NCBI GenBank assembly: GCA_963844965.1
Contig: CAWJQC010000007.1
Coordinates: 267,719 to 331,718 of the forward strand
Reading direction: 5' to 3'
Length of the DNA stretch: 64,000 bases
DNA from: an uncultured bacterium
GTDB lineage: Bacteria; Patescibacteriota; Minisyncoccia; UBA6257; 2-01-FULL-56-20
Shown here: piece after piece, positions 8,751 through 59,770 of the stretch
How positions within the stretch are numbered: the first letter of the stretch is position 1
Layout: every line of letters begins with the position of its first letter
Notes under the pieces: generated by a model
Seen by the model: the letters and a program-made list of their open reading frames with translations, nothing else
Database searches by the model: none
Told to the model about the DNA's origin: nothing
Program-made: the position numbers and the translations under genes

Positions 8751-10773
8751 ATGAAGAATACTTCCTGGACGGTGGGTGTTTTGGTGGTTTGTGTTTCTGT
8801 AAGTTTGCTTGCGGCGTCAAGCGCTTACGCGGCTACGCCGACGCTTTCGCTCGCGGTGACGAGCGGGGATTCTGTGCAGATAAACGTGATCGGCGATTCG
8901 AATTTTCCGGTCGTGTTTTATTACAATGTCGGCAGTTCTTCCGGAACGAACACAACGACGCTCGGTAGTACGAACTCCAGCGGCGTTTTTTCAACAACGA
9001 TAAGCACGGGCGCGTACGCGATAAACTCCAGCTATCCGGTATATGTCGTAGTGGATGGTCAGCAGTCAGCTACACAAACCTGGCCTTACGGCGCCAGTAC
9101 TTCCTCGGGTACAAGCGGTACGCCAGTACTCAGCCAGACAAGCGTTACGGTCGGTATCGGGCAGTCAGTGACCGTGACTTCGCAGGGAGGCAGCGGCATC
9201 TATTTGGTGTCCAATTCCAATTCTTCTGTGGCCGCCGCTTACGTATCTGGGACACAGGTTGTTGTTACCGGAAGCCAGCTGGGTTCAACGACAATGACAA
9301 TCTGTTATGTGGGTACCGCTTCCAATTGCACGAATTTGTATGTGAATGTGCAGAGCGGAACCGTGCAGGCGCTCACGTTCAGCCCGAACAACATTTCCTT
9401 ATCGGTCGGTGGCAGTCAATCTGTGACCATAAGCGGCGGGAGTGGAACGTATAGTTTGTCTTCCAATTCAAACTCCAGCGCCGTTTCCGTGAATTTATCG
9501 GGAAACACGCTTACGGTGACAGCCATCGCGGCCGGGAGCGCCAATATAACGGCATGCGACACGTCGGGAAATTGTAGTGTCTTATATGTGACGGTGGGCG
9601 GAAGCTCAACAAGCGGTTCCTTGTCTTTCAGCCAGACGAATCCGTCTATAGCGGTCGGACAGGTTATAAGCGTGAGTGTTTACGGCGGAAGCGGCTATTA
9701 CGTGTCCGCTAACACGAACTCCGGCATCGCCTCGCAAACGCTGAATGGCAACACACTCTCAATCTCTGGTCTGGCAGCCGGAGCGACGACGATCACCGTA
9801 TGTTCGGCGGTGAACGGCTGCGGCTACCTTTATGTCACCGTCGGTTCGTCATCCGGCACGAGCCAGACAATTACTTTTAGCCAGACGAATCCGTCCATAG
9901 CGGTCGGACAGGTTATAAGCGTGAGTGTTTACGGCGGGAGCGGGTATTACGTAACGGGCAACACGAATTCCAGTGTCGCTTCGCAAGCCCTTAATGGGAG
10001 CATACTTTCCATCTCCGGATTGGCAAGTGGCGCCACGACTATCACGGTATGTTCCGTGGCTAATGGCTGTGGTTCGATTTACGTCACGGTCGGTTCGTCG
10101 TCGGGCTCGAGTATGGCCATCACCTTTGGCACGACCAATCCCACTATTACAACGGGGCAAAGTATGAACATCTCGCTTTCTGGCGGTTCCGGTTATTTCG
10201 TTTCGTCTAATCCAAGTACGAATATTGCGCAGGCAAGCGTTACGGGCAATACGCTTGCGCTCTATGGCGTGGGCGTCGGCTCCGATTCGCTTACGATTTG
10301 CGCGAGTTCCGGCGGCTGCAACACGCTTTACGTCACAGCTGACAAGCGTGACGACCGTTCCGACCACCACGCAGACACAGCAAACAGTTGTTTCGAGCGC
10401 TTGGATAACCGAGATCCAGACAATGCAGACCCAGCTCACAAATATCCTCGCCCAAATCCAAACTTTACAAAGTAACCTTGCAAATCTTCTTACGCAAGTT
10501 ACCGCCGGCGCGCAAAGTCCAAGCGTAAGTGGCACGACGACCGCGCAATCCAGCGGCTATAAATTCTACAGCCCGCTCTCGCTTGGCTCGAGCGGCGCAG
10601 ACGTCACGGCATTGCAGACCCTCTTGGCCGCGAAGGGATATTACACTGGTTCCATAACCGGTTACTACGGTACGGCGACGATGGACGCGGTGATGGAATA
10701 CCAGACGGCTCATGGTATCACGCCGCTCGGCAACGTGGGTCCCGCCACCCGCGCGGCGCTGAACGCGGAATAA
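8751..10773 (+). CDS. cell-surface protein with tandem BIG2-like Ig repeats and a C-terminal peptidoglycan-binding domain (frameshift near 10330)
   Basis: ORF 8751..10475 has a signal peptide, S/T/G-rich sequence and at least 5 tandem ~80-aa repeats (…SQTNPSIAVGQVISVSVYGGSGYY…ATTITVCS..NGCG.LYVTV). Overlapping ORF 10225..10773 in another frame continues the sequence and ends in a PG_binding_1 motif (LSLGSSGADVTALQTLLAAKGYYTGSITGYYGTATMDAVMEYQ). Confidence 0.65.
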
Positions 10774-14140: not shown

Positions 14141-14220
14141 TCCGCGGAGCCATTTTTCATTTTCCGCCCGCACTGCCTACCTTCTCTAATTTTTGCCAAA
14201 GGCGGACAAGCCTGCCTGCC
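14141..14220. repeat. ~80-bp intergenic repeat, copy A (upstream of the metallopeptidase gene)
   Basis: tccgcggagccatttttcattttccgcccgcactgcctaccttctctaatttttgccaaaggcggacaagcctgcctgcc is ~88% identical to copy B at 14757..14836. It is followed by TAGAAT 8 nt before the ATG. Confidence 0.6.
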
Positions 14221-14756: not shown

Positions 14757-14836
14757 TCCGCGGAGCCGTTTTCATTTTCCGCTCATGCCGTTTACCTTCT
14801 CTAATTTCCGTCAAAGGCGGACAAGTCTGCCTGCCC
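14757..14836. repeat. ~80-bp intergenic repeat, copy B (upstream of the small membrane ORF/cyclophilin)
   Basis: See copy A. Followed ~70 nt later by TAAAAT immediately before the ATG at 14914. Confidence 0.6.
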
Positions 14837-18654: not shown

Positions 18655-19608
18655 ATCGCGGCCGTAACCGCGCACCATCCCGCCTCTGGTTTCCTGCCGA
18701 TATGCTCCTAGATGTGAGCCGCGCCCGGGCAGGAAATTGAATGTTCCTGAAGCCGAACCGCGCGTGTGGCGGCTATAGCCGCTGATGCCGACGCCGATTC
18801 TCCAGCTCCTTCCTCTCGTGACAAAATATCTGCTGGTTCCGGACGGAGCCGCGGCCACGCTCGTGCGCGTGACGGTGAAGCTCTCGCCGTCGCCTCCCAA
18901 GGACGATGGCGAAGCCAATATCTGTCCGTTTCCGTTCGTCATTGAAAGTGGCTGTGCTCCGGAGCCCGCGATTGTTACCGTGTTTCCGTTCATGACGGCG
19001 GTGCCGCCCGCGAACGAAACCGAGCCGAAGTTATCCAGGGGAACGAGACCGCTGGCGCTACTCGGCATTTCTTCTATCCACTCGGCGGAAGAATGCGAAG
19101 ACGCGTACTCAACGGAAGTTTGATAGGTTTGGTTGGTCGTGTTGTCCTTGAAAGAAATTTGCCAGTTATTGGAAGATACCTCGGTTAAAGAAACGGTAAC
19201 GGAGTCCCCGGCGGAAATTGTCAAAGGAATTTGCGCCGTTGCCTGCGGCAATATTTCGTACCATGCTTCATAGGTAACGCCGCCAGAGCCGTTCGTTACC
19301 GCTTGTGTCCCAACCTGTATCAGGTCGCTTTTCGTGACCCCGCCTATCCCGACCCAGGTGACGTCGGCCTCAGTAGAACTTGCGGCGGCGACGGTTGGAA
19401 CTATCCACGTGCTGCCGACCGAAGTGAAGGTTCCCTCGTCGGCAACGTAGCCGGCCCAGTTGAGCGAGGTGTTCGCGCCGGACGGCGAATTGACCGCCGG
19501 ATTGCCGATGGAATTCACCGCCACGGAACGATGTGCCGGAGAAAAGAACGAGAACGGAAGAGAAATTGTGAAAACGCCGATAGCGAATAGCTTTTTTAAT
19601 TGCAACAT
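18649..19608 (-). CDS. secreted peptidase G1 (eqolisin / scytalidoglutamic peptidase, Peptidase_A4) family protein with Arg/Gly-rich C-terminal tail
   Basis: Signal peptide. NWAGYV…STWIVP…WVGIGG…LIQVG…YEAWYE is the G1/A4 family motif block. The C-terminal ~60 aa is RG-rich low complexity. Confidence 0.55.
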   Translation of the reverse strand: MLQLKKLFAIGVFTISLPFSFFSPAHRSVAVNSIGNPAVNSPSGANTSLNWAGYVADEGTFTSVGSTWIVPTVAAASSTEADVTWVGIGGVTKSDLIQVGTQAVTNGSGGVTYEAWYEILPQATAQIPLTISAGDSVTVSLTEVSSNNWQISFKDNTTNQTYQTSVEYASSHSSAEWIEEMPSSASGLVPLDNFGSVSFAGGTAVMNGNTVTIAGSGAQPLSMTNGNGQILASPSSLGGDGESFTVTRTSVAAAPSGTSRYFVTRGRSWRIGVGISGYSRHTRGSASGTFNFLPGRGSHLGAYRQETRGGMVRGYGRDL

Positions 19609-20844: not shown

Positions 20845-21888
20845 ATGAAGCACCTCATTTCGCTTAAAGAGCAGTCGCGCGAGGATATTCTTCAGATTTT
20901 GGAACTGGCGCGGAAGCTCAAGGAAAAGCGCGCGAAAGGCGAACTTACCGAATATCTCAAGGACAAGACGCTCATAATGCTTTTCCAAAAGACGTCCACG
21001 CGGACGAGGCTTTCGTTCGAGGCGGCGATGACGGAACTCGGCGGGCATGCCATATTTCTGGACGCGCGGACTTCCCAGCTTGGCCTTGCCGACTTCGGCG
21101 ACGAAATTCGCGCCATCATGCGTTTCGGGCAGGTTCTCATGTTCCGCGCGCTCAAAGTCGCGGACGTGCTCACAGCCGCTTCATTCAATCAGATTCCGGT
21201 GATTGACGCCTGCAGCGAAAAATATCATCCGGCACAATCGCTCGGCGATATGCTAACGATGATTGAACACAGCTCCCCGCGTCATCCTGAGCGCAGCGAA
21301 GGATCTCCATGCTCCCCAGCGGAATTTGCCGAGGGATTAAAAAATATCAAAAAAGTCGTCTGGCTCGGAATTGAAAATAATGTTTCAAATACCCTGAAGC
21401 TTGTTTGCGTGAAGCTTGGCGTCAGGTTTGTGATCGCCGCGCCGGAAGTGGACGCGGCGAGCGTTGATGAGGAGTTGAACAGAATGGCCGAGGCCACCGG
21501 ACTTATTTCACGGACGCTGAATCTGAAAGAAGCTCTCGCCGGAGCGGATTATGTTCACACCGATACCTGGCTCAACATGGAGTTTTTCGACACGACGGTG
21601 TCGACCCTGAGCGAAGTCGAACGGGTTCATGGAAGCCGCGTGAAGCCGCAATTCGCGGAAGAATTGGAACGCAGGAAGAAAATTTTCATGCCTTACCAGC
21701 TGAATGCCAAGCTGATTGATACCTATGCCCCGAAGGCGAAGATAATGCATTGTCTTCCCGCGCACGTCGGCTATGAAATTTCCCGCGATGCCATTGACCA
21801 CAAGAATTCCGTTATTTTTGACCAAGCCGAGAACCGCCTGCACATCCAAAAAGCCGTAATTATGTGGCTCTTGGGGAAGGGGACATAG
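20845..21888 (+). CDS. argF: ornithine carbamoyltransferase with an in-frame ~20-aa repeat-element-derived insertion
   Basis: STRTRLSFE carbamoyl-phosphate motif, HCLPAHVG, and a C-terminus similar to OTCases. Insertion SSPRHPERSEGSPCSPAEFAEG is encoded by the palindromic repeat unit at 21281-21307. Confidence 0.8.
   Translation: MKHLISLKEQSREDILQILELARKLKEKRAKGELTEYLKDKTLIMLFQKTSTRTRLSFEAAMTELGGHAIFLDARTSQLGLADFGDEIRAIMRFGQVLMFRALKVADVLTAASFNQIPVIDACSEKYHPAQSLGDMLTMIEHSSPRHPERSEGSPCSPAEFAEGLKNIKKVVWLGIENNVSNTLKLVCVKLGVRFVIAAPEVDAASVDEELNRMAEATGLISRTLNLKEALAGADYVHTDTWLNMEFFDTTVSTLSEVERVHGSRVKPQFAEELERRKKIFMPYQLNAKLIDTYAPKAKIMHCLPAHVGYEISRDAIDHKNSVIFDQAENRLHIQKAVIMWLLGKGT
21281..21307. repeat. 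palindromic repeat unit GTCATCCTGAGCGCAGCGAAGGATCTC (single arm, in-frame inside argF)
   Basis: Near-identical to both arms of the inverted pair at 59294..59365. It encodes ...RHPERSEGS... in the argF frame. Confidence 0.6.
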
Positions 21889-22015
21889 TTTGCTATTTTG
21901 TCTGAAAAATAGGCCCTGACTCAAAGTCGAGGTTTTTATTTGTTGTCGGCGGGACATTTTGGATTTTTCCAGTAGTAAATGCTAAACTAAATCTACAACT
22001 TAATATGCCTAAACC

Positions 22016-22129
22016 GCCGAAATTTCGGTAACATGGCGTAAAAATCCCATCCCTGATACTAAGCTCCTCGCTTAGCTACTCAGGGATGGGTCGCGTCTCG
22101 AAAGAGGCGTGGGTAACCGAAAGGTTGCC
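22016..22129 (+). promoter_or_regulatory. highly structured palindromic leader upstream of the MTase-nuclease gene (nested perfect hairpins, GNRA-type loops, repeated CCCATCCCTG motif)
   Basis: ccgaaatttcgg; cccatccctga[tactaagctcctcgcttagcta]tcagggatggg (11-bp perfect stem with inner stem); gcgtctcgaaagaggcg; ggtaaccgaaaggttgcc. CCCATCCCTG recurs at 22176, 4 nt before the ATG. Confidence 0.35.
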
Positions 22130-22188: not shown

Positions 22189-23787
22189 ATGCCCAACAAG
22201 CTTTACTTCGGAGATAATCTTGATATCCTCCGCGACAAAATCGCCGACAATTCGGTTGATTTGATTTACCTTGACCCACCGTTCAACTCCAATCGCAACT
22301 ACAACGTACTTTTTAAAGAGGGATTGCAGGATAGTCCAGCACAAGTTCAAGCATTTGAGGATAGCTGGCACTGGACGCGCGAAGCGCAGGCGACTTTTGA
22401 GGAACTAATGGGTGTGCGGCCATCAAAGACAAAAATCAACGCCGACATCGTTAATTTAGCGCAGGCGTTAGAGAAGCTAGTCGGCCATAACGATATGCTG
22501 GCTTATCTCACAATGATGACGATTCGCTTAATCGAACTAAGGCGTGTTCTGAAGCCAACCGGAAGTATTTACCTTCATTGCGACCCAACCGCCAGCCATT
22601 ATTTGAAAGTTGTGTTGGACACCGTTTTTGGGAAACAAAATTTTTTGAATGAAGTCATTTGGAGATACGAAGGACCTCAATCGCCAAGCTTAATTAAATT
22701 TGCGACGAAGCACGATATCGTTCTTCGTTATGCGAGTGATATAAAATCTTGCAAAGCCGTCGAATTATATTATTTTGAAAAGATATCAGTTGAAGATGCA
22801 AATTTTAAGCAGGATGAGAATGGGCGTTATTTCTATACTCTACCCAAAGGAGACTATACCGAAGAAAGCATAAAAAGATTAGAACAAGAAGGTCGTATAT
22901 TCAGGACCTCTAAGGGAACAGTGCGTATAAAGTATTTTGTAGAAAAAACTTCGGATGGGAACTTTTTGCGTAAAAAGAAAATACCAGACGTTTGGGACGA
23001 CATACCTTCGCTTGGGCTTACTGCCCAATCGAAAGAAGTTCTTGGTTATCCGACCCAAAAACCCGAAGCACTTTTGGAAAGAATAATCAGAGCATCTTCA
23101 AAAGAAGGCGACTTAGTTCTTGACCCATTCTGCGGTTGTGGCACGACGGTCTCCGTCGCTGAGCGGCTAAAAAGGAATTGGGTTGGTATTGATATTACGA
23201 TGCTTGCTATTAATTTGATTCGCCATCGCCTCGCGAAACAATATCCGAACATAGAAATTTTAGTGGATGGCAGGCCAAAAGATATTCCCGCAGCCGGGGC
23301 GCTTTTCAAAAAAGACCCGTTTGAATTTGAATACTGGGCACTGGATTTAGTTGACGCTGTTCCTGCTCAAAGCAAAACCAAAGAAAATATGCGTGGCGCA
23401 GACAAGGGGATTGACGGCGTGATTAACTTTGTCAGAGACATAAAAAATGGCGAGCAAGTTTACGGTAAGTTGGTTGTTCAGGTGAAGGGTGGTGCGGTTC
23501 ACCGCGACCAAATTGCTACGCTTAAGGGTGATATAGAGCGTGAGCGGGCCGACGGCGGAATTTTTGTGACGCTCGAGAAGCCAACCCAGCCAATGAAAGA
23601 AGAGGCAGTAAGCACCGGAAGTTATAAGGTGGGTTTTGGCAAAGGAGAATACCCGAAAATTCAGATAGTAACCATAGAGGATTTATTAGATAATAAGAAG
23701 CCTGAAGTTCCTATTGCCGCCCTGCCTTATTATAAAGAGGCCAAAGTTGCTAAATCCGAAAACAGGTCAAAAAAATTAGGAATATAG
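22189..23787 (+). CDS. DNA methyltransferase (N6A/N4C, beta-class) fused to a C-terminal Mrr-type restriction endonuclease catalytic domain
   Basis: DLIYLDPPFNSNRNYN (motif IV), then LVLDPFCGCGTTVSVAERL…WVGIDI (motif I). The C-terminal ~180 aa (GADKGIDGVINF…GKLVVQVKGG…ADGGIFVTLEKPTQPMKEEA) matches the Mrr_cat PD-(D/E)xK block. Confidence 0.75.
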   Translation: MPNKLYFGDNLDILRDKIADNSVDLIYLDPPFNSNRNYNVLFKEGLQDSPAQVQAFEDSWHWTREAQATFEELMGVRPSKTKINADIVNLAQALEKLVGHNDMLAYLTMMTIRLIELRRVLKPTGSIYLHCDPTASHYLKVVLDTVFGKQNFLNEVIWRYEGPQSPSLIKFATKHDIVLRYASDIKSCKAVELYYFEKISVEDANFKQDENGRYFYTLPKGDYTEESIKRLEQEGRIFRTSKGTVRIKYFVEKTSDGNFLRKKKIPDVWDDIPSLGLTAQSKEVLGYPTQKPEALLERIIRASSKEGDLVLDPFCGCGTTVSVAERLKRNWVGIDITMLAINLIRHRLAKQYPNIEILVDGRPKDIPAAGALFKKDPFEFEYWALDLVDAVPAQSKTKENMRGADKGIDGVINFVRDIKNGEQVYGKLVVQVKGGAVHRDQIATLKGDIERERADGGIFVTLEKPTQPMKEEAVSTGSYKVGFGKGEYPKIQIVTIEDLLDNKKPEVPIAALPYYKEAKVAKSENRSKKLGI

Positions 23788-23889
23788 GCGGTACTTGACA
23801 CCGTTATCCACTCGTATATACTTAAACTATTCCAAAGACCGCAGGGCATCCGCCGATGAGGCGGCATAGGACCCGCGATAGGAATCGTT

Positions 23890-23971
23890 GGAGTAATCGC
23901 TAATAATGCGAATATCGGCAAATAATGCAAATAAAATTCGCATTATTTGAAAAAGATTAGCATTATTCGCG
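23890..23971. repeat. ~85-bp repeat family copy 1 (arrays of GCGAATAATGC-like sub-repeats in direct and inverted orientation), within the rplJ leader
   Basis: ~85% identical to 28967..29048. Internal inverted repeats aataaaattcgcattatt / attagcattattcgcg. Confidence 0.6.
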
Positions 23972-24018
23972 GACACTCCTCGATGGCGGCCTTTGGAGAA
24001 AAGGTCGTTTTTTATTCC

Positions 24019-25759: not shown

Positions 25760-25831
25760 GGGCGTTTAGCTCAGTGGTAGAGCGTTCGCTTCACATGCGA
25801 AAGGCCGCTGGTCCGATCCCAGCAACGCCCA
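25760..25831 (+). tRNA. tRNA-Val (anticodon CAC)
   Basis: Cloverleaf: acceptor GGGCGTT/AACGCCC, D arm GCTC-AGTGGTA-GAGC, anticodon stem TTCGC/GCGAA with loop TTCACAT, T arm GCTGG-TCCGATC-CCAGC. CCA is not encoded. Confidence 0.8.
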
Positions 25832-28064: not shown

Positions 28065-28973
28065 ATGCACCACCATCCGGTTCTTTTAAAAGAAATCATA
28101 AAATTTTTAGATCCGAAACCCGGCGAATTCATTGTTGACGGCACGGTTGACGGAGGAGGACACGGCGCCGAAATTTTTGAAAAGATTTTACCGAATGGAA
28201 GACTTTTGGGCGTAGACCTGGATGCCGATCTCCTGGAAAAAGCTTCGCGGGCAGTTTCCGCGAAAGTCAAAAGCCGGAAATCAAATATCAACAGCAATTT
28301 GATTTTGGTTCGGGGCAACTACGCCGACCTACCGGATATTTTGGAAGAAAAAAAGTTGCCGAAGGCCGACGGTTTGCTTCTGGATCTGGGATTTTCCTCC
28401 GAACAATTGGAGAACGCCGAAAAAAGGGGATTCAGCTTTGAAAAAAATGAGCCGCTTTTGATGACCTACAGCGCCGGGCGGAAGCCCGTCAAAGAAATTC
28501 TCACGGAACTTGACGCCAAGGAGCTTGCGAAAATCATCTTTGAACTGAGCGGTGAGAAGTTCGCGATGCGGATAGCGCGGGCGATAAAAGAACGGGGGCG
28601 GACGAGAGCAGTAGAGACAAGCGGTGAGCTCGCGGAAGCGGTCCGGGGCGCGGTGCCCAAAAATTATGAGCGCGGCCGCATTGATCCCGCGACGAGAACT
28701 TTTCAGGCGCTGCGGATTTACGCGAACGACGAACTAGGGAATCTTAAAAAAGTTTTGGACAGATTGGGAGAAATTCTGGAACCGGGCGGGAGAGTGGTGA
28801 TTATAAGTTTCCATTCGCTTGAGGATCGAATAGTGAAGGATAATTTTCGGAAGCTGGAGGAATCCGGAGAACTCCGGATTTTGACGAAGAAGCCGGTTCG
28901 CCCCGCGGAAGAGGAAATTTTGAAAAATCCGCGCAGCCGCTCAGCTAAACTGCGCGCCGCTATCATGGAGTAA
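28065..28973 (+). CDS. rsmH: 16S rRNA (cytosine1402-N4)-methyltransferase RsmH (MraW)
   Basis: HHPVLLKEII…DGTVDGGGHG…DLGFSSEQL…SFHSLEDRIVK, the conserved MraW motifs. It sits in the dcw cluster. Confidence 0.9.
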   Translation: MHHHPVLLKEIIKFLDPKPGEFIVDGTVDGGGHGAEIFEKILPNGRLLGVDLDADLLEKASRAVSAKVKSRKSNINSNLILVRGNYADLPDILEEKKLPKADGLLLDLGFSSEQLENAEKRGFSFEKNEPLLMTYSAGRKPVKEILTELDAKELAKIIFELSGEKFAMRIARAIKERGRTRAVETSGELAEAVRGAVPKNYERGRIDPATRTFQALRIYANDELGNLKKVLDRLGEILEPGGRVVIISFHSLEDRIVKDNFRKLEESGELRILTKKPVRPAEEEILKNPRSRSAKLRAAIME

Positions 28974-29048
28974 TCGCGAATAACGCGAATGATAGCAAAT
29001 AACGCGAATAAAATTCGCATTATTCAATAAAAATTAGCATTATTCGCG
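28967..29048. repeat. ~85-bp repeat family copy 2 (GCGAATAATGC sub-repeat array), rsmH-ftsL intergenic
   Basis: See copy 1 at 23890..23971. It begins at the rsmH stop codon. Confidence 0.6.
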
Positions 29049-29057
29049 AATACTCTA

Positions 29058-44081: not shown

Positions 44082-44377
44082 AGTTAGTTCTTCATTTCTA
44101 TCACGTTGAGCAGCTTTTCGCAAAAGATGAAGGGACGTCAGGAACCCTCAAAAAATATTGTCAAACTGGCTCCAAACGTGATACCTTTTAGGTAATTGAA
44201 TATCAGATAGATCGCCTAAACCACGCATTTTGCATGGCATGGCATTACGCAGAATCTCCCTTCCAGATACCAAACGCCACGTTTGGCGACTTCTGGAAGG
44301 GAGTCACTCCGAAAGGGGTGGGGCCGCAAGGCCCAAGCCAGCGTGGCGTTTTGTGTTCTCTATTTTAAAACAAACCC

Positions 44378-45416: not shown

Positions 45417-47345
45417 ATGGCAAAACGAGGAAGACCGCCGAAAAATCAATTGACGGTCGCGCAACCAAAAACCGAATGTGCTCCGGACATGAGTAGTCTC
45501 AATAAGATGCCGAAGTATTGTTTGTACGCGAGGAAGTCATCGGAGAGCGAAGAACGGCAGGCACTCTCCATCGACTCACAGGTCAAGGAGATGTATAAGA
45601 TCGCGGAGCGCGATCATCTCTCGGTCGTTGAAGTACTGACCGAATCACACTCTGCAAAAAGCACCGGATGCCGACCGATCTTTAACCAGATGGTTATAGG
45701 TGTTAAGGATGGCCGCTTTGAGGGCATTCTTACCTGGGCACCGGATCGTCTGAGTCGCAACGCAGGCGACTTGGGCCAGCTGGTCGATCTTATGGACAAC
45801 GGCCATCTTGCGGAAATCCGCACGTTCGGGCAGATATTCAAAAATTCGCCCAACGAAAAATTCTTGCTTATGATTCTCTGCTCACAGGCGAAACTCGAAA
45901 ATGATAACAAGAGCGAGAACGTGAAGCGAGGTCTCCGTGCTGCCGCCGAGCGAGGATATCGCCCAGGCGTCGCACTTGTGGGATACACGAACAGTTATCG
46001 CAGGGATCATCCCGGCGAAGTGGTAATTGATAAACTGCGAGCCCCAATCATAAAGCTTATGTTTGAGAAAGCCGCAAATGGATGGTCAGCGCGGAAGTTG
46101 GTGGTCTGGCTTCGCGGTATCAACTTTACGACGCGCAACGGAACATATCTCTATCTAAGCAGTGTTCATACGCTGTTGCAGAACCACTTTTACTACGGCA
46201 CGTTCGAATACCCTCGGGGCAGCGGCGCATGGCACAAAGGAAATCATAAACCGCTCATTACCAAGGATATGTTCGACCGTGTTCAAGCGCAGATTGAACG
46301 ACGGCGCACCTCGCGCCGCTCGGAGCGGAAATCTTTTGGATTCACCCAGCTCATGCATTGCGGCATCTGTGGCTCCGGCGTTTCCGCCGAAGAAAAATTT
46401 AAGAAACTGGTAGACGGTTCACAGGCCCGCTATGTCTACTACGGATGCAATCGTTCCAAGGGGGTGAAGTGTACCAATACTTACATCCGTGAGGATTTTC
46501 TGGTCCGGCAGTTTGTGAACATCATCGACGAGATATCGCTCGACGAGCTTGGCATACGAAAACTTCTCGGCGAGGAAACTGAGCGTGTCTTTCGGTTTCA
46601 CAATGATGTCATGGGCGATCCTAACGCTTCGGAAACTCAAGAGAAAAAAGATATCGACATTAAAACCTACGCTAAATATCTACTCGCAAGAGGCAACGCC
46701 GAAGAAAAAAGATTACTACTATGCAACATTCAGAACCGACTGATCCTTCGGGATAAAGCCGTATATCTGGAAGAAGTAGGCGGTCTTACCTGGAAGGACT
46801 ATATTGGCCATATGAGAAAGTGCGCGAACTGCGGATCAAAAAACGTGAACGAGAGCGGACCGTATGCGAACTGGAAATTCGGCGATACGCCAATCGACGA
46901 CACGCCGCGGATCGTGTATTTCGCTTGTCTCGACTGTGAGCAATCGTGGAAGCAGGTCAACGAGAATATCTTGCGATTAATGCGCGAGTATGTGGTGGTG
47001 CCAGAGGGAAACGGGGCGTGGATTAAAACACCTGGCGGCTCGGAGTTTTTCGCGACGCCGTCTTTCGCCGCGCGGTTCAGAGACACGGTGGAGATAGACG
47101 GCAAAAAAGTGCCACCGAAAAAAATTCTCGGGGAAATGCTGTACTGGCCAGACAGGAACGCTTACGAGACGACGATCGAATATGACGACGGAAGCGAACG
47201 GACATTTGATATCCCAAGTCTTCGTGGCAGGAACAATACAGAAGAAGGCATGAAGCCGATCAGCAATAAGGATGGTCTTATGGAGTACAAAGAAGGTAAG
47301 ATGCAAACTTATTTCGGTCGCGGTCTCCAATATGACGGCCGATAA
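45417..47345 (+). CDS. large serine recombinase (phage-type serine integrase), intact
   Basis: 642 aa: resolvase domain (LYARKSSESEERQALSIDSQ…ILTWAPDRLSRNAGDL), recombinase domain, zinc ribbon (CGICGS…YYGCNRSKGVKC), coiled coil and a second C4 motif. Confidence 0.85.
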   Translation: MAKRGRPPKNQLTVAQPKTECAPDMSSLNKMPKYCLYARKSSESEERQALSIDSQVKEMYKIAERDHLSVVEVLTESHSAKSTGCRPIFNQMVIGVKDGRFEGILTWAPDRLSRNAGDLGQLVDLMDNGHLAEIRTFGQIFKNSPNEKFLLMILCSQAKLENDNKSENVKRGLRAAAERGYRPGVALVGYTNSYRRDHPGEVVIDKLRAPIIKLMFEKAANGWSARKLVVWLRGINFTTRNGTYLYLSSVHTLLQNHFYYGTFEYPRGSGAWHKGNHKPLITKDMFDRVQAQIERRRTSRRSERKSFGFTQLMHCGICGSGVSAEEKFKKLVDGSQARYVYYGCNRSKGVKCTNTYIREDFLVRQFVNIIDEISLDELGIRKLLGEETERVFRFHNDVMGDPNASETQEKKDIDIKTYAKYLLARGNAEEKRLLLCNIQNRLILRDKAVYLEEVGGLTWKDYIGHMRKCANCGSKNVNESGPYANWKFGDTPIDDTPRIVYFACLDCEQSWKQVNENILRLMREYVVVPEGNGAWIKTPGGSEFFATPSFAARFRDTVEIDGKKVPPKKILGEMLYWPDRNAYETTIEYDDGSERTFDIPSLRGRNNTEEGMKPISNKDGLMEYKEGKMQTYFGRGLQYDGR

Positions 47346-49127
47346 GCGTTGCCAGATGGCAAAATAACATCGCCGCTTCCGGAGGAATTGCTTGGAGTAG
47401 GGCTTGGCGGTGCACTTGCCGATGGAGATCCGTCGCTGGTCTCGGATGGTCCATTTCGCGGAGATGGTCCCAACGCCGCAGGCCGATGAGTACTGTCTGC
47501 GGAATTGTCGCCAGTGTTCGGCGGCGGTGGCGTAGAACGCGGAGCAAGACCCCATACTTGTAAATTGCCGAGGAGATCGGGGAGATTAACGCTGTAGCTG
47601 TCCGTGGGCAATGGCTCGGTATTTCTGCTGCGGCCCATGATCTCCACCTTGCCCGTATCCAGGTTAAGCCGCCCAATCACTGGCAACTGGCCATTCTCTC
47701 CAATCACGCTGTTCGCCATGAGGGTAAATGCGTCACAGAGGTCATCGAACCGCTCTATGCCAAATCCAATGAGCTGTTGCTTCAGGTGTGAATTCTCCGG
47801 GTCCGGCGCGAAGAGTATTGTGCCATTCTGAATAAGAGCGCTTGCGGTCATAAGCCGGGCGTGTTTGTCGGTGGCGATCTTTACGCCGATCACCCTGCAA
47901 TGTTTGGATTTTTCGAGGTACTCGATGGCCGACCGTTGATAGGCCACATCCTCGATCCGTATCTCGACCGCGCCGCAAAGCTTCGTGTACATATCATGGA
48001 GTTCCTTGAGGAGCTCCATCGTTTCAAGGAACGCCATCCTGCGGTTAATCGTCTTGATGACATACCCGTGGAAGTCCTTGCCGAATCCGGCGAAGAGGCC
48101 TACGACGATGCCCGTGTAATCAGCGGTTTCTTTTTCCGAGATCGCGAGGTCGACCCCGATGACCACCTTTTTGATTTTCTCTTTCGGCAATACTACCCAG
48201 TGCTTGATCCATTCCGCTTGGATCACGCGCTCGTCGCTCGTGACCGTTTGGAGTAAAAATTCCCTGCGCCACGTAGTGTCGTCACCGATCTTCCGTTTGA
48301 ACGCCTCAAGTGCCTCGGGCGTCTTGAACTTCTCTGGCCACTGGCATACGCCTTCATCGTCAACGAGCGGATACCGCCGAAAGACACCACCACGCTCGCC
48401 TTTTTTGATTTGCTCGATAACGCGGCCGAGCAGGGAAAATTCGTGCAAGAAATTCCCGATGAGAAAGATCTTTGTCTTTGTCGTGCCCAACGGAATTATT
48501 TCCGATACGAACCAGCTATAGATGCGATCGCGGTTTTCTTTTGTCCGCGTCCCTTGCAGATCTTGCGGATCGTCTACGATCACATAGTCCGGGCGGTATT
48601 GCTTGTAGCGCAGACCGCGCACTGCCTGTTGGGACGAGATCGCAATTATTTTTGCATCGAATTTCCTGAGGGTCATGCCGAACGCGCCGCTCTCGTCGCC
48701 CTCCATATCGATCGGTCCGAAATCATTTCTGAGGAGGGGCGATTCAAGCGCCTTGCGGATGTTGGAGAAATGCGTCCGCACCTGATGGAGCGTATCGGAC
48801 GCGATCACGATAAAGTGGGCGCGACCGCTGAGGATCAGACCACAGAGAGAATGACGTATTGAGAATCGCGCTCTTCCCGGAATTTCTGAATCCGGCGATC
48901 ACATAGAGATCATTGTCGTTCGACTCGGTAAGGCGAAACATATCTCGGTGAAAGTCCGCCATCGGGTCTTGGAGGTAGTCCGCAAGATAGATGTTAAAAA
49001 ACATCGCGTGCGACCACTGGCCAAGCTTGCGCCGCAGGAGGCGGCTCTTGCGGATGATGTCGATGAAGAAATTGAACTTATCGGCATTGTTACTGTTGTC
49101 ACTACTAGGAATTGGTAGGTTGTCCAT
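47309..49127 (-). CDS. phage terminase large subunit (frameshift near 48810-48850)
   Basis: ORF 48744..49127 has the ATPase Walker A GFRNSGKSAILNT. ORF 47309..48808 has VIVDDPQD (Walker B-like) and the RNaseH-like nuclease domain VIGVDLAISEKETADYTGIVV. The C-terminal ~90 aa is Pro/Ser-rich. Confidence 0.7.
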
Positions 49128-57998: not shown

Positions 57999-58334
57999 GG
58001 AGCCGGCTGTAGAGCACTCAAACAATTCCCCTTTGGGTGGTTGCCAGTAGAGCACTCATTCATAACAAACAGAATTGGAGGTCACCACTGGCAACCACCC
58101 AGGGCAGAATTGTCCCGCAACTCTCTGCGAGCCGCCAAGGTGAGCAGCTAGAGTTGGCGCGATCCCGCTTAATCTCCGATGCATGCAGACAACTGGTTTT
58201 CATCGCAGAGAGAACGGGATCTACGCCAATCTAACCTCAGGACTTTGTCCTTCGGAGATTGGGCGGGAGAGGTCACCACAGCCGCTCCGCCGAGAACCTT
58301 TCTGGGTTCTGGGCGGAGCGGCTGTTCGTGTTTC
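57999..58334 (+). ncRNA. candidate structured RNA / long structured leader upstream of murB
   Basis: Perfect 14-bp stem gggtggttgccagt/actggcaaccaccc; perfect 13-bp stem cagccgctccgcc/ggcggagcggctg ending 15 nt before the murB ATG; long-range complement aactctctgcgag/ctcgcagagag; direct repeat gtagagcactca x2. No credible ORF. Confidence 0.3.
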
Positions 58335-59261
58335 ATGGAGTTCAAAAAAGACGTCAATTTAGCGGAATACAGCAACTATAAAATCGGCGGGCCGGCCAAG
58401 TTTTTTTTTGAAGTGAAAAGCGTTGAAGAGACAGAATGGGCGGTCAAGGAGGCGAAGAGGCGCGGACTTAAAATTTTCGTTTTGGGAGGCGGAACGAATC
58501 TTTTGATTAGCGACGAAGGTTACGATGGCTTGGTTCTGAAACCGGCCGTGAGATTTTTGAAGTGCGACGGAACGGCAATAACAGCCGGGGCAGGGACTTT
58601 AATGTCCGAACTTTTGGATTTCGCGGCGGAAAAAGGATTAAGTGGCCTTGAGTGGGCCGGCGGACTGCCGGGGACTTTGGGCGGCGCTATCCGCGGCAAC
58701 GCCGGCGCTTTCGGCGGCGAGATTAAGGATTCCGTTGGCTCGGTAATGAGCTTGAGGATCGGCGACTTGAAGCAAGTGACAAGGGACAAGAATGAATGCA
58801 AATTTGGATACAGAGCGAGCATCTTCAAGGAGAGCAGCGGCGAAGAAATAATTTTAAGCGCCACATTGCGTTTAAATAACGGCGAGGCGGCGGAAATCAA
58901 AAAAATTATCCGGGAAAAAATTGATTATCGCTTAAGCCGCCAGCCGCTGGAGTACCCCAATATCGGAAGCATTTTCAAGAATGTTCCAGTTGAACTCGTA
59001 CCGAAAGACGTTCTTCCAAAATGCGCCGATGCTATAAAACAGGACCCATTCCCGATAGTTCCGGCGGCCCGTCTCATCGGACTTACCGGCCTCAAAGGCG
59101 CAAAACACGGCGGCGCGATGATATCGCCCAAGCACGGCAATTTCATTGTGAACGTCGGGGATGCCAAGGCGGCGGATGTCAAAAATCTTATAAACCTAAT
59201 TAAAGAGGAGGTCCGCAAAAAGTTCGGTATCAAATTGGAAGAGGAAATAATGGAATTGTAG
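58335..59261 (+). CDS. murB: UDP-N-acetylenolpyruvoylglucosamine reductase
   Basis: MEFKKDVNLAEYSNYKIGGPAKFFFEV…FVLGGGTNLLISDEG… (FAD-binding) and C-terminal MurB motifs. Start at the internal Met of ORF 58179..59261. Confidence 0.85.
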   Translation: MEFKKDVNLAEYSNYKIGGPAKFFFEVKSVEETEWAVKEAKRRGLKIFVLGGGTNLLISDEGYDGLVLKPAVRFLKCDGTAITAGAGTLMSELLDFAAEKGLSGLEWAGGLPGTLGGAIRGNAGAFGGEIKDSVGSVMSLRIGDLKQVTRDKNECKFGYRASIFKESSGEEIILSATLRLNNGEAAEIKKIIREKIDYRLSRQPLEYPNIGSIFKNVPVELVPKDVLPKCADAIKQDPFPIVPAARLIGLTGLKGAKHGGAMISPKHGNFIVNVGDAKAADVKNLINLIKEEVRKKFGIKLEEEIMEL

Positions 59262-59293
59262 AAATAAAAAGCGAGGAGGGCAACATTTCCTCT

Positions 59294-59365
59294 GTCATGC
59301 TGAGCGGAGCGAAGCATCTCATAGCCGCACATAACATGGAGATCCTTCGCAAAGCTCAGGATGAC
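59294..59365. repeat. inverted pair of the GTCATCCTGAGCG.AGCGAAG.ATCTC repeat unit (two arms separated by 18 bp), murB-hpf intergenic
   Basis: gtcatgctgagcggagcgaagcatctc …18 nt… gagatccttcgcaaagctcaggatgac. Both arms match the single unit inside argF at 21281-21307. Confidence 0.6.
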
Positions 59366-59431
59366 CGGACGAAATTTTCGAGTAGCCTCAACAACCTTTG
59401 CGGAAAATTTATTTGCAGTATAATACCTTCT

Positions 59432-59770
59432 ATGGAACTTAATATCATCGGTAAAAATTTGGATTTGACGCCAAGCATAAAGGCCTTTGCGGAGAAAAAG
59501 TTACTGCCCCTCGCGAAGTTTTTGAAACGATTTGAGGAAGAAGGCAGCGTCTCGGTGCGGCTGGAATTAGCTCGCATTACGCAGCATCATAGGCGCGGCA
59601 ATGTTTTCTGGGCGGCGGCCGACCTCAAATTACCGGGCAAGCTTTTGCGGGCGGAAACGGAAGCGGGCGACGCGCGAGCCGCGATAGACGGCATAAAGGA
59701 CGAGCTACGCATAGAGATAGAAAAATATAAAACGAAGTTTTTGAAGCCGCAAAGAGGTGCAGGGAAATAA
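59432..59770 (+). CDS. hpf: ribosome hibernation promoting factor (HPF/RaiA, sigma-54 modulation protein family)
   Basis: MELNIIGKNLDLTPSIKAFAEKKL…VSVRLE…GNVFWAAADLKLPGKLLRAETEAGDARAAIDGIKDELRIEIEKYK is the HPF short-form pattern. The upstream part of ORF 59297..59770 is repeat-derived. Confidence 0.8.
   Translation: MELNIIGKNLDLTPSIKAFAEKKLLPLAKFLKRFEEEGSVSVRLELARITQHHRRGNVFWAAADLKLPGKLLRAETEAGDARAAIDGIKDELRIEIEKYKTKFLKPQRGAGK

What the first reader, a model, noticed from the sequence alone, without database searches (positions are those of the whole stretch)
21281..21307. Palindromic repeat unit GTCATCCTGAGCGCAGCGAAGGATCTC inserted in-frame within ornithine carbamoyltransferase; an inverted pair of the same unit lies between murB and hpf
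The 27-bp unit occurs as a single arm inside argF, encoding SSPRHPERSEGSPCSPAEFAEG between the carbamoyl-phosphate and ornithine-binding halves where OTCases normally have a short loop. The same unit occurs as a perfect inverted pair (59294-59365), a stable hairpin, in the murB-hpf intergenic region. This behaves like a REP/MITE-type element that can land in-frame in a surface loop of an essential enzyme.
Basis: seen in the sequence. Interest (0 to 1): 0.55.

Follow-up and report, generated by a model that had tools for sequence, protein, structure and literature searches.

The report
Selfish hairpin repeat inside argF
A 27-base hairpin repeat from a known, very widespread class of bacterial "junk" repeats (CGTC-tagged REP elements) sits in frame in two surface loops of an arginine-synthesis enzyme of a candidate-phyla-radiation bacterium; this is a new instance of a known phenomenon, not a new kind of system.

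Summary
The unit GTCATCCTGAGCGCAGCGAAGGATCTC is at 21281-21307, in frame, inside an intact ornithine-carbamoyltransferase-family gene. Two diverged copies form an inverted doublet between murB and hpf. The doublet is imperfect (the arms differ at 5 of 27 positions), not perfect as reported, but it still folds stably.

The unit fits the described CGTC-tagged REP superfamily in several respects:
- a YGTC head, a stem beginning AT and a short tail;
- mostly inverted dimers with the heads outward;
- mostly extragenic, with occasional in-frame copies;
- no known transposase.

This superfamily already includes the Rickettsia elements RPE-4 and RPE-6.

The hairpin is supported by covariation. Its apex, GCGNAGC, is the "mini-hairpin DNA" motif. 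The same core occurs in about 20 bacterial phylum- or class-level groups and in viral contigs. No target-site duplication was found.

Orthologue comparison shows the argF segment is an insertion, because the sister orthologue lacks it. argF carries a second, related insert at 21599-21629. The same two loops hold different palindromic repeats in other orthologues.

One result is unexplained: the insert is 95% identical between two orthologues whose genes are 77% identical.

Verdict: real, interpretation supported, a new member of a known kind. The mobilising enzyme is unknown.

The parts
20845..21888 (+). Host gene: ornithine-carbamoyltransferase-family ORF (argF-like), 347 aa, intact
   Evidence: ORF listed. 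Pfam OTCace_N and OTCace. Best solved relatives are OTCases, E = 1.9e-52. NCBIfam TIGR00658 scores 262 bits in two stretches. After deleting both inserts it scores 279 bits in one stretch. The cut-off is 280.85.
21274..21333 (+). Site-1 insert, 60 nt (residues 144-163, SPRHPERSEGSPCSPAEFAE; net +19 aa), between the interdomain helix and the first strand of the ornithine domain
   Evidence: Absent from P0004 and most orthologues. Appears as a gap opposite PDB 1a1s. In the model it is a loop at 144-157 following helix 129-143.
21280..21307 (+). REP unit: CGTC head (21280-21283), outer stem ATCCT/AGGAT (21284-88 / 21300-04), tandem GA/GA, tail CTC
   Evidence: Sequence. Exact match. Family logo with sharp edges. 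Covariation.
21291..21297 (+). Apex GCGCAGC, a GCGNAGC 'mini-hairpin DNA' motif
   Evidence: Sequence. Motif definition and melting temperatures of 70-76 C in PMC13037366. The loop base N is free in the family.
21589..21636 (+). Site-2 insert (residues 249-264, net +13 aa), directly after the NMEFF segment that aligns with the SMG-loop region of OTCases
   Evidence: Absent from P0004. Shared with P0002, P0003 and P0011. Residues 252-263 are loop with pLDDT below 50. Residues 246-272 are unaligned to 1a1s.
21599..21629 (+). Second, related unit TGTCGACCCTGAGCGAAGTCGAACGGGTTCA (TGTC head, stem ACCC/GGGT, core GAGCGAAGTCGAA)
59293..59320 (+). Left arm of the intergenic doublet: TGTC head, stem ATGCT/AGCAT, apex GCGGAGC
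   Evidence: Its stem pair 6/22 is G-C where the argF unit has C-G, a compensatory difference.
59321..59338 (.). 18-nt spacer of the doublet. Read on the - strand, CCATGTTATGTGCGGCTATGAGATGC resembles the conserved spacer of doublets in other metagenomes
   Evidence: Compare L271, L279, L290, L300 and L314.
59339..59366 (-). Right arm of the doublet (GGTCATCCTGAGCTTTGCGAAGGATCTC on the - strand). Its apex is degenerate (GCTTTGC) and its head is GGTC
58332..59261 (+). murB (context). Its stop codon ends 32 nt before the left arm (head T at 59293)
59435..59770 (+). hpf (context). ORF 59297-59770 starts at an ATG inside the left arm and runs in frame into hpf, which is probably a false N-terminal extension
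19409..19433 (+). Possible decayed copy (6 mismatches). Low confidence
   Evidence: Matches with 8 or fewer mismatches are common by chance (about 17 per shuffle), so this rests only on having 6 of 22 mismatches.
47427..47451 (-). Possible decayed copy (7 mismatches) sharing the tail GGATCTCCAT, in the C-terminal tail of a terminase-like ORF. Low confidence

Best explanation
The unit is a small non-coding, selfish hairpin repeat of the CGTC-tagged REP type.

Anatomy (shown). An unpaired head YGTC is followed by a 5-bp outer stem that always begins A-T, T-A. Next come two invariant G.A/A.G oppositions, then a 2-bp G-C/C-G inner stem closing a GNA (or GNNA) loop, then a short tail. The apex GCGNAGC/GCGNNAGC is the sequence known to form an unusually stable DNA mini-hairpin.

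The usual genomic form is an inverted doublet of about 60-100 nt with the heads outward. The murB-hpf copy is such a doublet. Single units also occur.

In this lineage, a 60-nt segment containing one unit was inserted in the loop between the two domains of argF. A related unit was inserted in the flexible loop after the SMG-loop equivalent.

Why these copies persist (inferred). Their lengths are multiples of three, the unit has no stop codon in 4 of 6 frames, and both sites are permissive surface loops. Other orthologues carry other palindromic repeats at the same two sites.

How it spreads (inferred, not shown). Copying probably proceeds through a single-stranded DNA hairpin handled in trans by an unidentified enzyme, in a way that leaves no target-site duplication. 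The head, the G.A pairs and the mini-hairpin are the likely recognition features.

The intergenic doublet may additionally act as an mRNA 3'-end structure, as proposed for REPs in general.
For: Repeat status and spread.
- 3 copies in the window against 0 expected.
- More than 120 viral contigs and more than 120 genome contigs hold the core. The genome contigs come from about 20 phylum- or class-level groups and include cultured Bradyrhizobium, Hymenobacter, Sphingomonas and Bizionia.
- The conserved block has sharp edges and random flanks.

Hairpin.
- In 103 copies not selected by the search pattern, 86.3% of cells are paired against 78.4% in shuffles. There are 79 double-sided changes against 23.7 expected. 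0 of 500 shuffles reach either value, and slid controls score 0.115 or less against 0.334.
- Per pair: 8/24 CG 42, UA 32, GC 7; 13/19 GC 75, AU 17; 10/22 UA 74, CG 14.
- The G.A and A.G oppositions are kept in 69 and 67 of 74 copies.

Doublets. 61% of genome hits have an inverted partner, with total length peaking at 70-79 nt.

Target-site duplication. None around 105 doublets; observed equals shuffled.

Placement.
- In long ORFs: 23-26% of units against 63-64% of random positions.
- Flanking gene orientation: unidirectional 38, convergent 16, divergent 4, against 236/77/85 for random intergenic positions.

Insertion status in argF..

Loops..

Other repeat families occupy the same two loops in P0002, P0003, P0006, P0008 and P0011.

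The same unit sits in frame in phage structural proteins L003 and L090 and is absent from their homologue L014.

Published family description: PMC3733652.

Mini-hairpin: PMC13037366.
Against: - No mobilising enzyme was found. Neighbour-gene clustering gave no recurrent family in genome loci, but the test is weak because such a gene would be single-copy per genome.
- A single unit folds no better than shuffles under nearest-neighbour energies. PMC13037366 says such models do not capture mini-hairpin stability.
- Only about 3-4 clear copies lie in 64 kb, and the copy number in the source genome is unknown.
- About 30 nt of the argF insert (CATGCTCCCCAGCGGAATTTGCCGAG) is not explained by the unit. 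Its junction was not found elsewhere in one metagenome scan.
- The insert is 57/60 identical between the window and P0001, while the rest of the gene is 76.8% identical (third codon positions 90% against 51%). Simple decay of an old insertion does not predict this.
- No filled/empty polymorphism within one population was seen.
Confidence: 0.8

Rival explanations
1. The hairpin is kept for a host function at the nucleic-acid level. Candidates are an mRNA 3'-end stabiliser or terminator for murB, a binding site for a conserved protein, or, inside argF, a translation or replication pause between the two domains.
For: - The doublet lies 32 nt after the murB stop, ahead of hpf, in the typical REP position.
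- The site-1 insert is far more conserved than synonymous sites of argF: 57/60 against 76.8%, third positions 18/20 against 51%.
- Stems differ between orthologous copies by compensatory changes. The window has CCT/AGG where P0002 has TGC/GCA. L003 has TCT where L090 has CCT.
- Some family members supply a Shine-Dalgarno sequence plus ATG to downstream genes.
Against: - No terminator-like site (no T run) was found, and no Rfam family matches.
- Most orthologues, including the sister P0004, do without the insert.
- Different, unrelated palindromes occupy the same loops. This fits tolerance better than a specific function.
- In P0001 the apex is already broken (GCGAGGC).
- PMC3733652 argues that uneven family sizes rule out a general chromosomal function.
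Confidence: 0.12
2. It is a classical MITE, a deletion derivative of a DDE-type insertion sequence moved by cut-and-paste, with the two arms acting as terminal inverted repeats.
For: The doublets look like short terminal inverted repeats with TGTC...GACA ends. About 18% of copies in one sample carry an extra partial copy TGTCATCCTGAGC about 22 nt upstream, reminiscent of repeated transposase-binding sites.
Against: - No target-site duplication was found at 105 doublets.
- Single arms are common and are the best-conserved part.
- Covariation points to an intra-arm hairpin rather than only arm-to-arm complementarity. In the window doublet each arm keeps its own 6/22 pair at the cost of an inter-arm mismatch.
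- No transposase was found nearby.
Confidence: 0.05
3. The argF segment is an ancestral or adaptive protein feature, and its resemblance to the intergenic repeat is secondary.
For: The ORF is intact and catalytic motifs flank the insert. The segment is conserved between the window and P0001.
Against: - It is present only in a small clade and absent in the sister and in about 100 other close homologues.
- The nucleotide unit is identical to a repeat found across phyla in non-coding DNA.
- Conservation extends to third codon positions, which protein-level selection does not explain.
- The model gives a low-confidence loop there.
Confidence: 0.02
4. It is an assembly or chimera artefact that introduced a common repeat into argF.
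For: The window probably comes from a metagenome assembly, and repeats can mislead assemblers.
Against: An independent assembly (Logan SRR31558124, P0001) carries the same insert at the same site with 3 substitutions, in frame. Other orthologues from other samples carry related units at the same site.
Confidence: 0.01

Closest known systems
CGTC-tagged REP superfamily (Di Nocera, De Gregorio and Rocco 2013, BMC Genomics 14:522; PMC3733652)
   Same: - Unpaired head CGTC, often TGTC.
- Stem starting with complementary A-T pairs.
- Short tail (CCA in the alphaproteobacterial copies seen here).
- Mostly inverted dimers with the heads outward and conserved spacers.
- Mostly extragenic, between unidirectional or convergent genes.
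- Some in-frame intragenic copies.
- No associated transposase.
   Different: - The stem is interrupted by two G.A oppositions, and the loop is 3-4 nt rather than 4-5.
- The paper reports CGTC repeats in 5 phyla. This core was found here in about 20 groups, including CPR lineages, and in viral contigs.
- The paper's consensus figure is not held, so assignment to CGTC-1 to CGTC-4 could not be checked.
Rickettsia palindromic elements (RPE), the classic case of palindromic repeats inserted in frame in protein genes
   Same: In-frame insertion of a palindromic repeat into housekeeping enzymes at positions compatible with the fold (PMC10969869). According to PMC3733652, RPE-4 and RPE-6 are themselves CGTC elements.
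   Different: The first-described RPEs are about 150 bp and confined to Rickettsia. Here the unit is 27-28 nt, the host is a CPR bacterium, and the same core occurs across phyla.
REPIN-RAYT systems (GTAG-tagged REP doublets with a domesticated IS200-like tyrosine transposase)
   Same: Inverted doublets as the apparent replicative form, singlets as remnants, hairpin formation, and no target-site duplication.
   Different: The head is YGTC, not GTAG. No RAYT link is known or found. REPIN families are lineage-specific and vertically inherited, whereas this core is shared across phyla.
Mini-hairpin DNA d(GCGNAGC)/d(GCGNNAGC) (Hirao and colleagues; review PMC13037366)
   Same: The loop base is free, with A commonest and T rarest.
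   Different: The motif is known from phage G4 and ssiA priming sites and N4 promoters, not from genomic repeat families. The review does not mention REPs. Physical stability of this 27-mer was not measured.

Membership tests
CGTC-tagged REP superfamily | Unpaired terminal tetranucleotide CGTC (TGTC or CCTC allowed) | tested here: met
   CGTC at 21280-21283 and TGTC at 59293-59296. The right arm has GGTC, a variant. In 105 doublets the base before GTCAT is T in 65 and C in 35.
CGTC-tagged REP superfamily | Stem begins with complementary A-T residues in the first and second positions | tested here: met
   AT...AT in all three window copies. Pair 6/26 is A-U in 71 of 103 copies and pair 7/25 is U-A in 86 of 103.
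CGTC-tagged REP superfamily | Stem of 8-9 bp and loop of 4-5 nt | tested here: inconclusive
   Nine stacked positions, but two are G.A oppositions (5 Watson-Crick pairs, then GA/GA, then 2 Watson-Crick pairs). The loop is 3 nt (GNA) or 4 nt (GNNA). The paper notes atypical loops in Bradyrhizobium CGTC-1.
CGTC-tagged REP superfamily | Short unpaired 3' tail, mostly CCA | tested here: inconclusive
   The tail is CTC in the window. It is C(T/C)(C/A) in the family and CCA in alphaproteobacterial copies.
CGTC-tagged REP superfamily | Predominantly inverted dimers with spacers of 20-100 bp | tested here: met
   88 of 145 genome hits have an inverted partner downstream. Total length is mostly 60-100 nt. 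The heads-outward orientation matches the intragenic dimer peptides in the paper's Additional file 3.
CGTC-tagged REP superfamily | Mostly extragenic, between unidirectional or convergent ORFs; some in-frame intragenic units | tested here: met
.
CGTC-tagged REP superfamily | No flanking or associated transposase gene | tested here: inconclusive
   No recurrent neighbour family within 1.5 kb in genome loci. The test has little power, and whole genomes were not available.
CGTC-tagged REP superfamily | Match to one of the four published family consensus sequences (Figure 2 of the paper) | not testable with these tools
   Figures are not held, and the sequence does not occur in the text or supplements.
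REPIN-RAYT system | GTAG head on the REP | tested here: not met
   The head is YGTC.
REPIN-RAYT system | A RAYT (IS200-like Y1 transposase) gene flanked by the repeats in the same genome | not tested
   Only 64 kb of the genome is available, and the window's genes were not all scanned.
MITE derived from a DDE insertion sequence | Terminal inverted repeats flanked by a target-site duplication | tested here: not met
   Direct repeats at the boundaries are no longer than in shuffled flank pairs, for 105 doublets.
Rickettsia palindromic elements | In-frame insertion in protein-coding genes at positions compatible with the fold | tested here: met
Rickettsia palindromic elements | Sequence membership in an RPE family | not tested
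   No RPE sequences were compared. The link is only through the statement in PMC3733652 that RPE-4 and RPE-6 are CGTC elements.
Any Rfam RNA family | Score at or above the family gathering threshold | tested here: not met
   No hit at either locus at gathering thresholds. The best sub-threshold hit is a spurious microRNA model at 26.5 bits against a threshold of 84.
Mini-hairpin DNA | Sequence GCGNAGC or GCGNNAGC | tested here: met
   GCGCAGC at 21291-21297 and GCGGAGC at 59304-59310. P0002 has GCGGCAGC. The right arm (GCTTTGC) and P0001 (GCGAGGC) have lost the motif.
Mini-hairpin DNA | Extraordinary thermal and nuclease stability as DNA | not testable with these tools
   This needs melting or NMR experiments. 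Nearest-neighbour folding gives only -2.7 kcal/mol.

The most novel reading that the evidence does not exclude
The GCGNAGC-cored YGTC hairpin is one mobile family shared by most bacterial phyla and their phages, and it is still active in CPR bacteria. It is copied by an as yet unidentified, widely distributed single-stranded-DNA enzyme that recognises the head, the G.A pairs and the DNA mini-hairpin. It repeatedly re-enters or overwrites the same permissive protein loops. This would explain why the argF insert is much younger-looking (95% identical) than its host gene (77%), and why orthologous copies differ by fully compensated stems.
Probability: 0.25. Interest if true: 0.65.

Novelty: new member of a known kind. 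Interest (0 to 1): 0.45.

Why it matters
- Even very small CPR genomes carry selfish hairpin repeats inside an essential biosynthetic enzyme. The same two loops of one enzyme family have been hit by several repeat families, which gives a natural map of insertion-tolerant sites.
- There are practical consequences for annotation. The inserts split the OTCase profile match and lower its score (262 against 279 bits). The intergenic doublet creates a false in-frame upstream start for hpf.
- More broadly, CGTC-type repeats have had no known transposase since 2013. The breadth seen here, the absence of target duplications and the DNA mini-hairpin apex narrow the search towards a single-stranded-DNA mechanism.

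Tried and rejected
- Rfam at gathering thresholds on the whole window and at permissive thresholds on the doublet gave nothing credible.
- Hammerhead and kink-turn readings of CUGA...GAA were considered by hand and dropped. The G8 position of the hammerhead core and the 3-nt bulge of a K-turn are absent.
- A relaxase nic-site reading (YATCCTG) was dropped because that stretch covaries and is not fixed.
- Full-text searches for the sequence and its variants found only unrelated primers.
- A target-site duplication test was negative. The 7-nt direct repeat GCTCCCC around the argF unit is therefore treated as coincidence.
- Flank complementarity beyond the arms is barely above shuffles (5.36 against 5.13 of 12). 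Upstream pyrimidine bias is modest.
- Clustering of neighbouring ORFs found only shared phage structural genes among viral contigs, and no transposase. My first guess that the small viral contigs were Microviridae was wrong.
- The junction GGATCTCCATGCTCCCCAGCGG was not found in metagenome contigs.
- The isolate-phage collection gave no blastn match to a CCT-type doublet.
- The plasmid collection gave only unannotated intergenic matches on alphaproteobacterial megaplasmids and one Halomonas replicon.
- No terminator-like site was found at the doublet.
Full report
**Observation.** The 27-mer GTCATCCTGAGCGCAGCGAAGGATCTC is at 21281-21307 on the + strand. With up to three mismatches it has two more copies, at 59294-59320 (+) and 59339-59365 (-). 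None of 100 dinucleotide-preserving shuffles gave any match.

The first copy lies in ORF 20845-21888 (347 aa). Pfam matches the carbamoyl-phosphate domain at residues 2-141 and the Asp/Orn domain at 169-342. The flanking genes of the other two copies are murB and hpf.

The pair is not perfect. Each arm differs from the argF unit at three positions, and the arms differ from each other at five. The 101-nt region nevertheless folds at -38.9 kcal/mol with z = -5.4. A single unit is a weak hairpin by standard energies.

**The argF segment is an insertion.**
- The best 120 homologues are Patescibacteria/CPR-type proteins, mostly 312-319 aa long.
- In an alignment of 26 of them, the window protein has two extra segments. 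One is SPRHPERSEGSPCSPAEFAE after MIEHS. The other is DTTVSTLSEVERVH after NMEFF.
- A neighbour-joining tree on gap-free columns groups the window with P0001, P0002 and P0003. P0004 is their sister, and P0004 lacks both segments.
- Both segments are gaps or unaligned against Pyrococcus furiosus OTCase 1a1s.
- In an AlphaFold model (mean pLDDT 71), they fall in a loop after helix 129-143 and in a loop at 246-266 with pLDDT below 50.
- The NCBIfam OTCase equivalog scores 262 bits in two stretches. After deleting both segments it scores 279 bits in one stretch. The cut-off is 280.85, and the insert-free P0004 scores 264.

The gene is therefore OTCase-family and probably argF, but the whole clade sits just under the curated threshold.

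**The second insert and the two hot spots.** The site-2 DNA, TGTCGACCCTGAGCGAAGTCGAACGGGTTCA (21599-21629), is a relative of the same unit: a TGTC head, stem ACCC/GGGT and core GAGCGAAGTCGAA.

At site 1:
- P0001 has the same unit.
- P0002 has GTCATTGCGAGCGGCAGCGAAGCAATCT, with a fully compensated stem and a GNNA loop.
- P0003 has a shorter relative, CCCTGAACGTAGTCGAAGGG.
- P0006 has an unrelated palindrome.

At site 2, P0006 and P0008 carry two tandem TCCGCC-N4-GGCGGA hairpins.

Two loops of this enzyme have therefore been occupied repeatedly by palindromic repeats of several families.

**The family.**
The logo of 136 distinct copies shows a block with sharp edges, TGTCATnCTGAGCGnAGCGAAGnATCTC, and featureless flanks. 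The two stem N positions match in composition: T/A 77/75, C/G 46/48, G/C 9/9, A/T 4/4.
Record titles name about 20 phylum- or class-level groups. They include Acidobacteriota, Alpha-, Gamma- and Deltaproteobacteria, Bacteroidota, Chloroflexota, Nitrospirota, Verrucomicrobiota, Planctomycetota, Gemmatimonadota, Firmicutes, Omnitrophota, Saccharibacteria and Gracilibacteria. Cultured Bradyrhizobium, Hymenobacter, Sphingomonas and Bizionia are among them.
- Stem classes are TCT/AGA, CCT/AGG, GCT/AGC and TGC/GCA.

**Structure.** I collected copies in the fetched loci that were not selected by the search patterns. On 103 of them I counted the hairpin .....(((((..((...))..)))))...:
- 86.3% of cells pair, against 78.4% in shuffles.
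- 79 cells have changes on both sides, against 23.7 expected.
- The covariation score is 0.334 against 0.187. No shuffle out of 500 reaches any of these values.
- Slid controls score 0.115 or less.

An earlier count on 74 such copies showed the two G.A oppositions next to the inner stem are nearly invariant (69 and 67 of 74), and the loop base is free.

The apex GCGNAGC, or GCGNNAGC in variants, is the "mini-hairpin DNA" sequence. It melts at 70-76 C as DNA, is less stable as RNA, and is said not to be captured by conventional thermodynamic models (PMC13037366). That may explain the weak computed energies. The link to this repeat family is my inference, and the review does not mention such repeats.

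**Organisation and placement.**
- 61% of genome hits have an inverted partner downstream. The heads point outward, and total length peaks at 70-79 nt. The window doublet is 72 nt.
- Its spacer resembles a conserved spacer seen in doublets from other metagenomes.
- In the window doublet each arm keeps its own 6/22 pair (G-C in one arm, C-G in the other). This creates an arm-to-arm mismatch, so it is a heterodimer of two stem classes.
- No target-site duplication flanks 105 doublets. The boundaries are Y|GTCAT...ATGAC|R.
- Units are depleted from long open frames: 23-26% against 63-64% for random positions.
- Among intergenic cases they avoid divergent gene pairs: 4 of 58 against 85 of 398.
- No neighbouring gene family recurs in genome loci.
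- Viral contigs with the unit are tailed-phage-like. Two homologous structural proteins carry it in frame (CHSERSEES, CHPERSEGS), and a third homologue lacks it.

**Comparison with what is known.** Di Nocera and colleagues described a CGTC-tagged REP superfamily (PMC3733652) with these features:
- a CGTC head, often TGTC;
- a stem starting with A-T pairs, and a 3-nt tail, mostly CCA;
- predominant inverted dimers with conserved spacers;
- location downstream of genes, between unidirectional and convergent ORFs;
- in-frame intragenic copies;
- no associated transposase.

They found these repeats in five phyla. Their set includes Neisseria dRS3 and Rickettsia RPE-4 and RPE-6.

The unit here meets the head, stem-start, dimer, placement and intragenic criteria. 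Stem and loop lengths and the tail fit only partly. The published consensus figure is not available to me, so the sub-family cannot be assigned.

The in-frame behaviour is the one made famous by Rickettsia palindromic elements (PMC10969869). I found no paper containing this sequence and none linking CPR bacteria with REPs.

**Mechanism.** Shown: it is a repeat. It has a conserved hairpin with covariation. It occurs as doublets and singles without target duplication. It is an insertion in argF at two loop sites.

Inferred: it spreads as single-stranded DNA through a trans-acting enzyme of the kind that handles hairpins (IS200/IS605 or RAYT-like, or something unknown). In-frame copies are the survivors of selection on length, frame and position. 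The unit is stop-free in 4 of 6 frames (my translation of the 27-mer).

Anecdotally, the two intact apexes and the site-2 unit are all on the + strand. Positive GC skew across the window marks this strand as the leading strand, that is, the lagging-strand template. With three cases this is only a lead.

**Unexplained.** Between the window and P0001, the 60-nt site-1 insert is 57/60 identical, with third codon positions 18/20. The rest of the gene is 76.8% identical, with third positions 51%. The window and P0003 show the same pattern at site 2: 89.6% against 78.6%. By my binomial estimate the site-1 excess has a probability of about 1e-4.

Possible causes are parallel recent insertion at a hot spot, local gene conversion, or selection on the nucleotide sequence. 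The flanks are not unusually similar, and the insert's distal junction was not found elsewhere. I cannot decide between these causes.

**Verdict.** The element is best filed as a new member, in a new host group, of the known CGTC-type REP repeats, with in-frame copies analogous to RPEs. The breadth of the family, the mini-hairpin apex and the young-looking inserts are the parts worth following up.

Noticed in passing
window 22006-22129 (+) and 44213-44334 (+): Two LOOT RNA (RF03000) matches, at 84.1 and 58.4 bits against a gathering score of 46.4. The first begins 118 nt after the argF stop codon.
   Followed up: no
window 21599-21629 (+): A second repeat-derived in-frame insert in argF (a related unit with core GAGCGAAGTCGAA). 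It lies directly after the segment equivalent to the substrate-binding SMG loop. P0002, P0003 and P0011 share it.
   Followed up: yes
window 59297-59770 (+): An ATG inside the left arm of the doublet opens a frame that runs into hpf, giving the N-terminal extension MLSGAKHLIAAHNMEILRKAQDDR.... The profile matches start at 59435, so gene callers may over-extend hpf.
   Followed up: partly
window 23889-23978 and 28966-29055: A 90-nt direct repeat (84% identical) rich in AATAATGCGAAT-like sub-repeats. It brackets about 5 kb of lower G+C that contains a tRNA gene (25760-25831). This may be an integrated element next to the DNA methyltransferase gene at 22189-23787.
   Followed up: no
window 9625-10122; 14154-14220 and 14769-14835: A 249-nt tandem duplication (79% identical) and a 67-nt dispersed repeat (84% identical).
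   Followed up: no
window 47309-48808 (-): A phage terminase large-subunit-like ORF (TIGR01630 domain) with a proline/serine-rich C-terminal tail. The tail contains a possible decayed copy of the unit (47427-47451, read as RNGPSETSDGSP).
   Followed up: partly
L255 about 1205-1245; L266 about 2044-2085; L258, L273, L282 and others: In some genomes the 3' half of the unit, AAGGATCTCCATG, supplies a Shine-Dalgarno-like sequence and the start codon of the downstream gene. Examples are an epimerase-like gene and a set of acidobacterial kinase-like genes whose leaders read GAAATCCTGAGCG... instead of GTCAT....
   Followed up: partly
L252, L260, L269, L275, L284, L314 and others; L143, L208, L217, L222: About 18% of copies in one sample have a partial direct copy, TGTCATCCTGAGC, about 22 nt upstream of the full unit. 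Mirrored partial copies sometimes follow the right arm. The cause is unknown.
   Followed up: partly
L003 (around locus position 6422, - strand), L090 (around 11593), L014: Homologous phage structural proteins carry the unit in frame at the same position but with different, compensated stems (CHSERSEES against CHPERSEGS). A third homologue lacks it. This parallels the argF situation.
   Followed up: partly
window argF against L124 (P0001) and L123 (P0003): The repeat-derived inserts are much more conserved at the nucleotide level than the surrounding gene, including at third codon positions (57/60 against 76.8%; 43/48 against 78.6%).
   Followed up: partly
plasmid NZ_CP017076.1 (Novosphingobium resinovorum, 1.76 Mb): 39 places match the alphaproteobacterial TGC-type doublet. 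Nothing is annotated under the match listed for this record. It is a convenient replicon for a census of the family.
   Followed up: no
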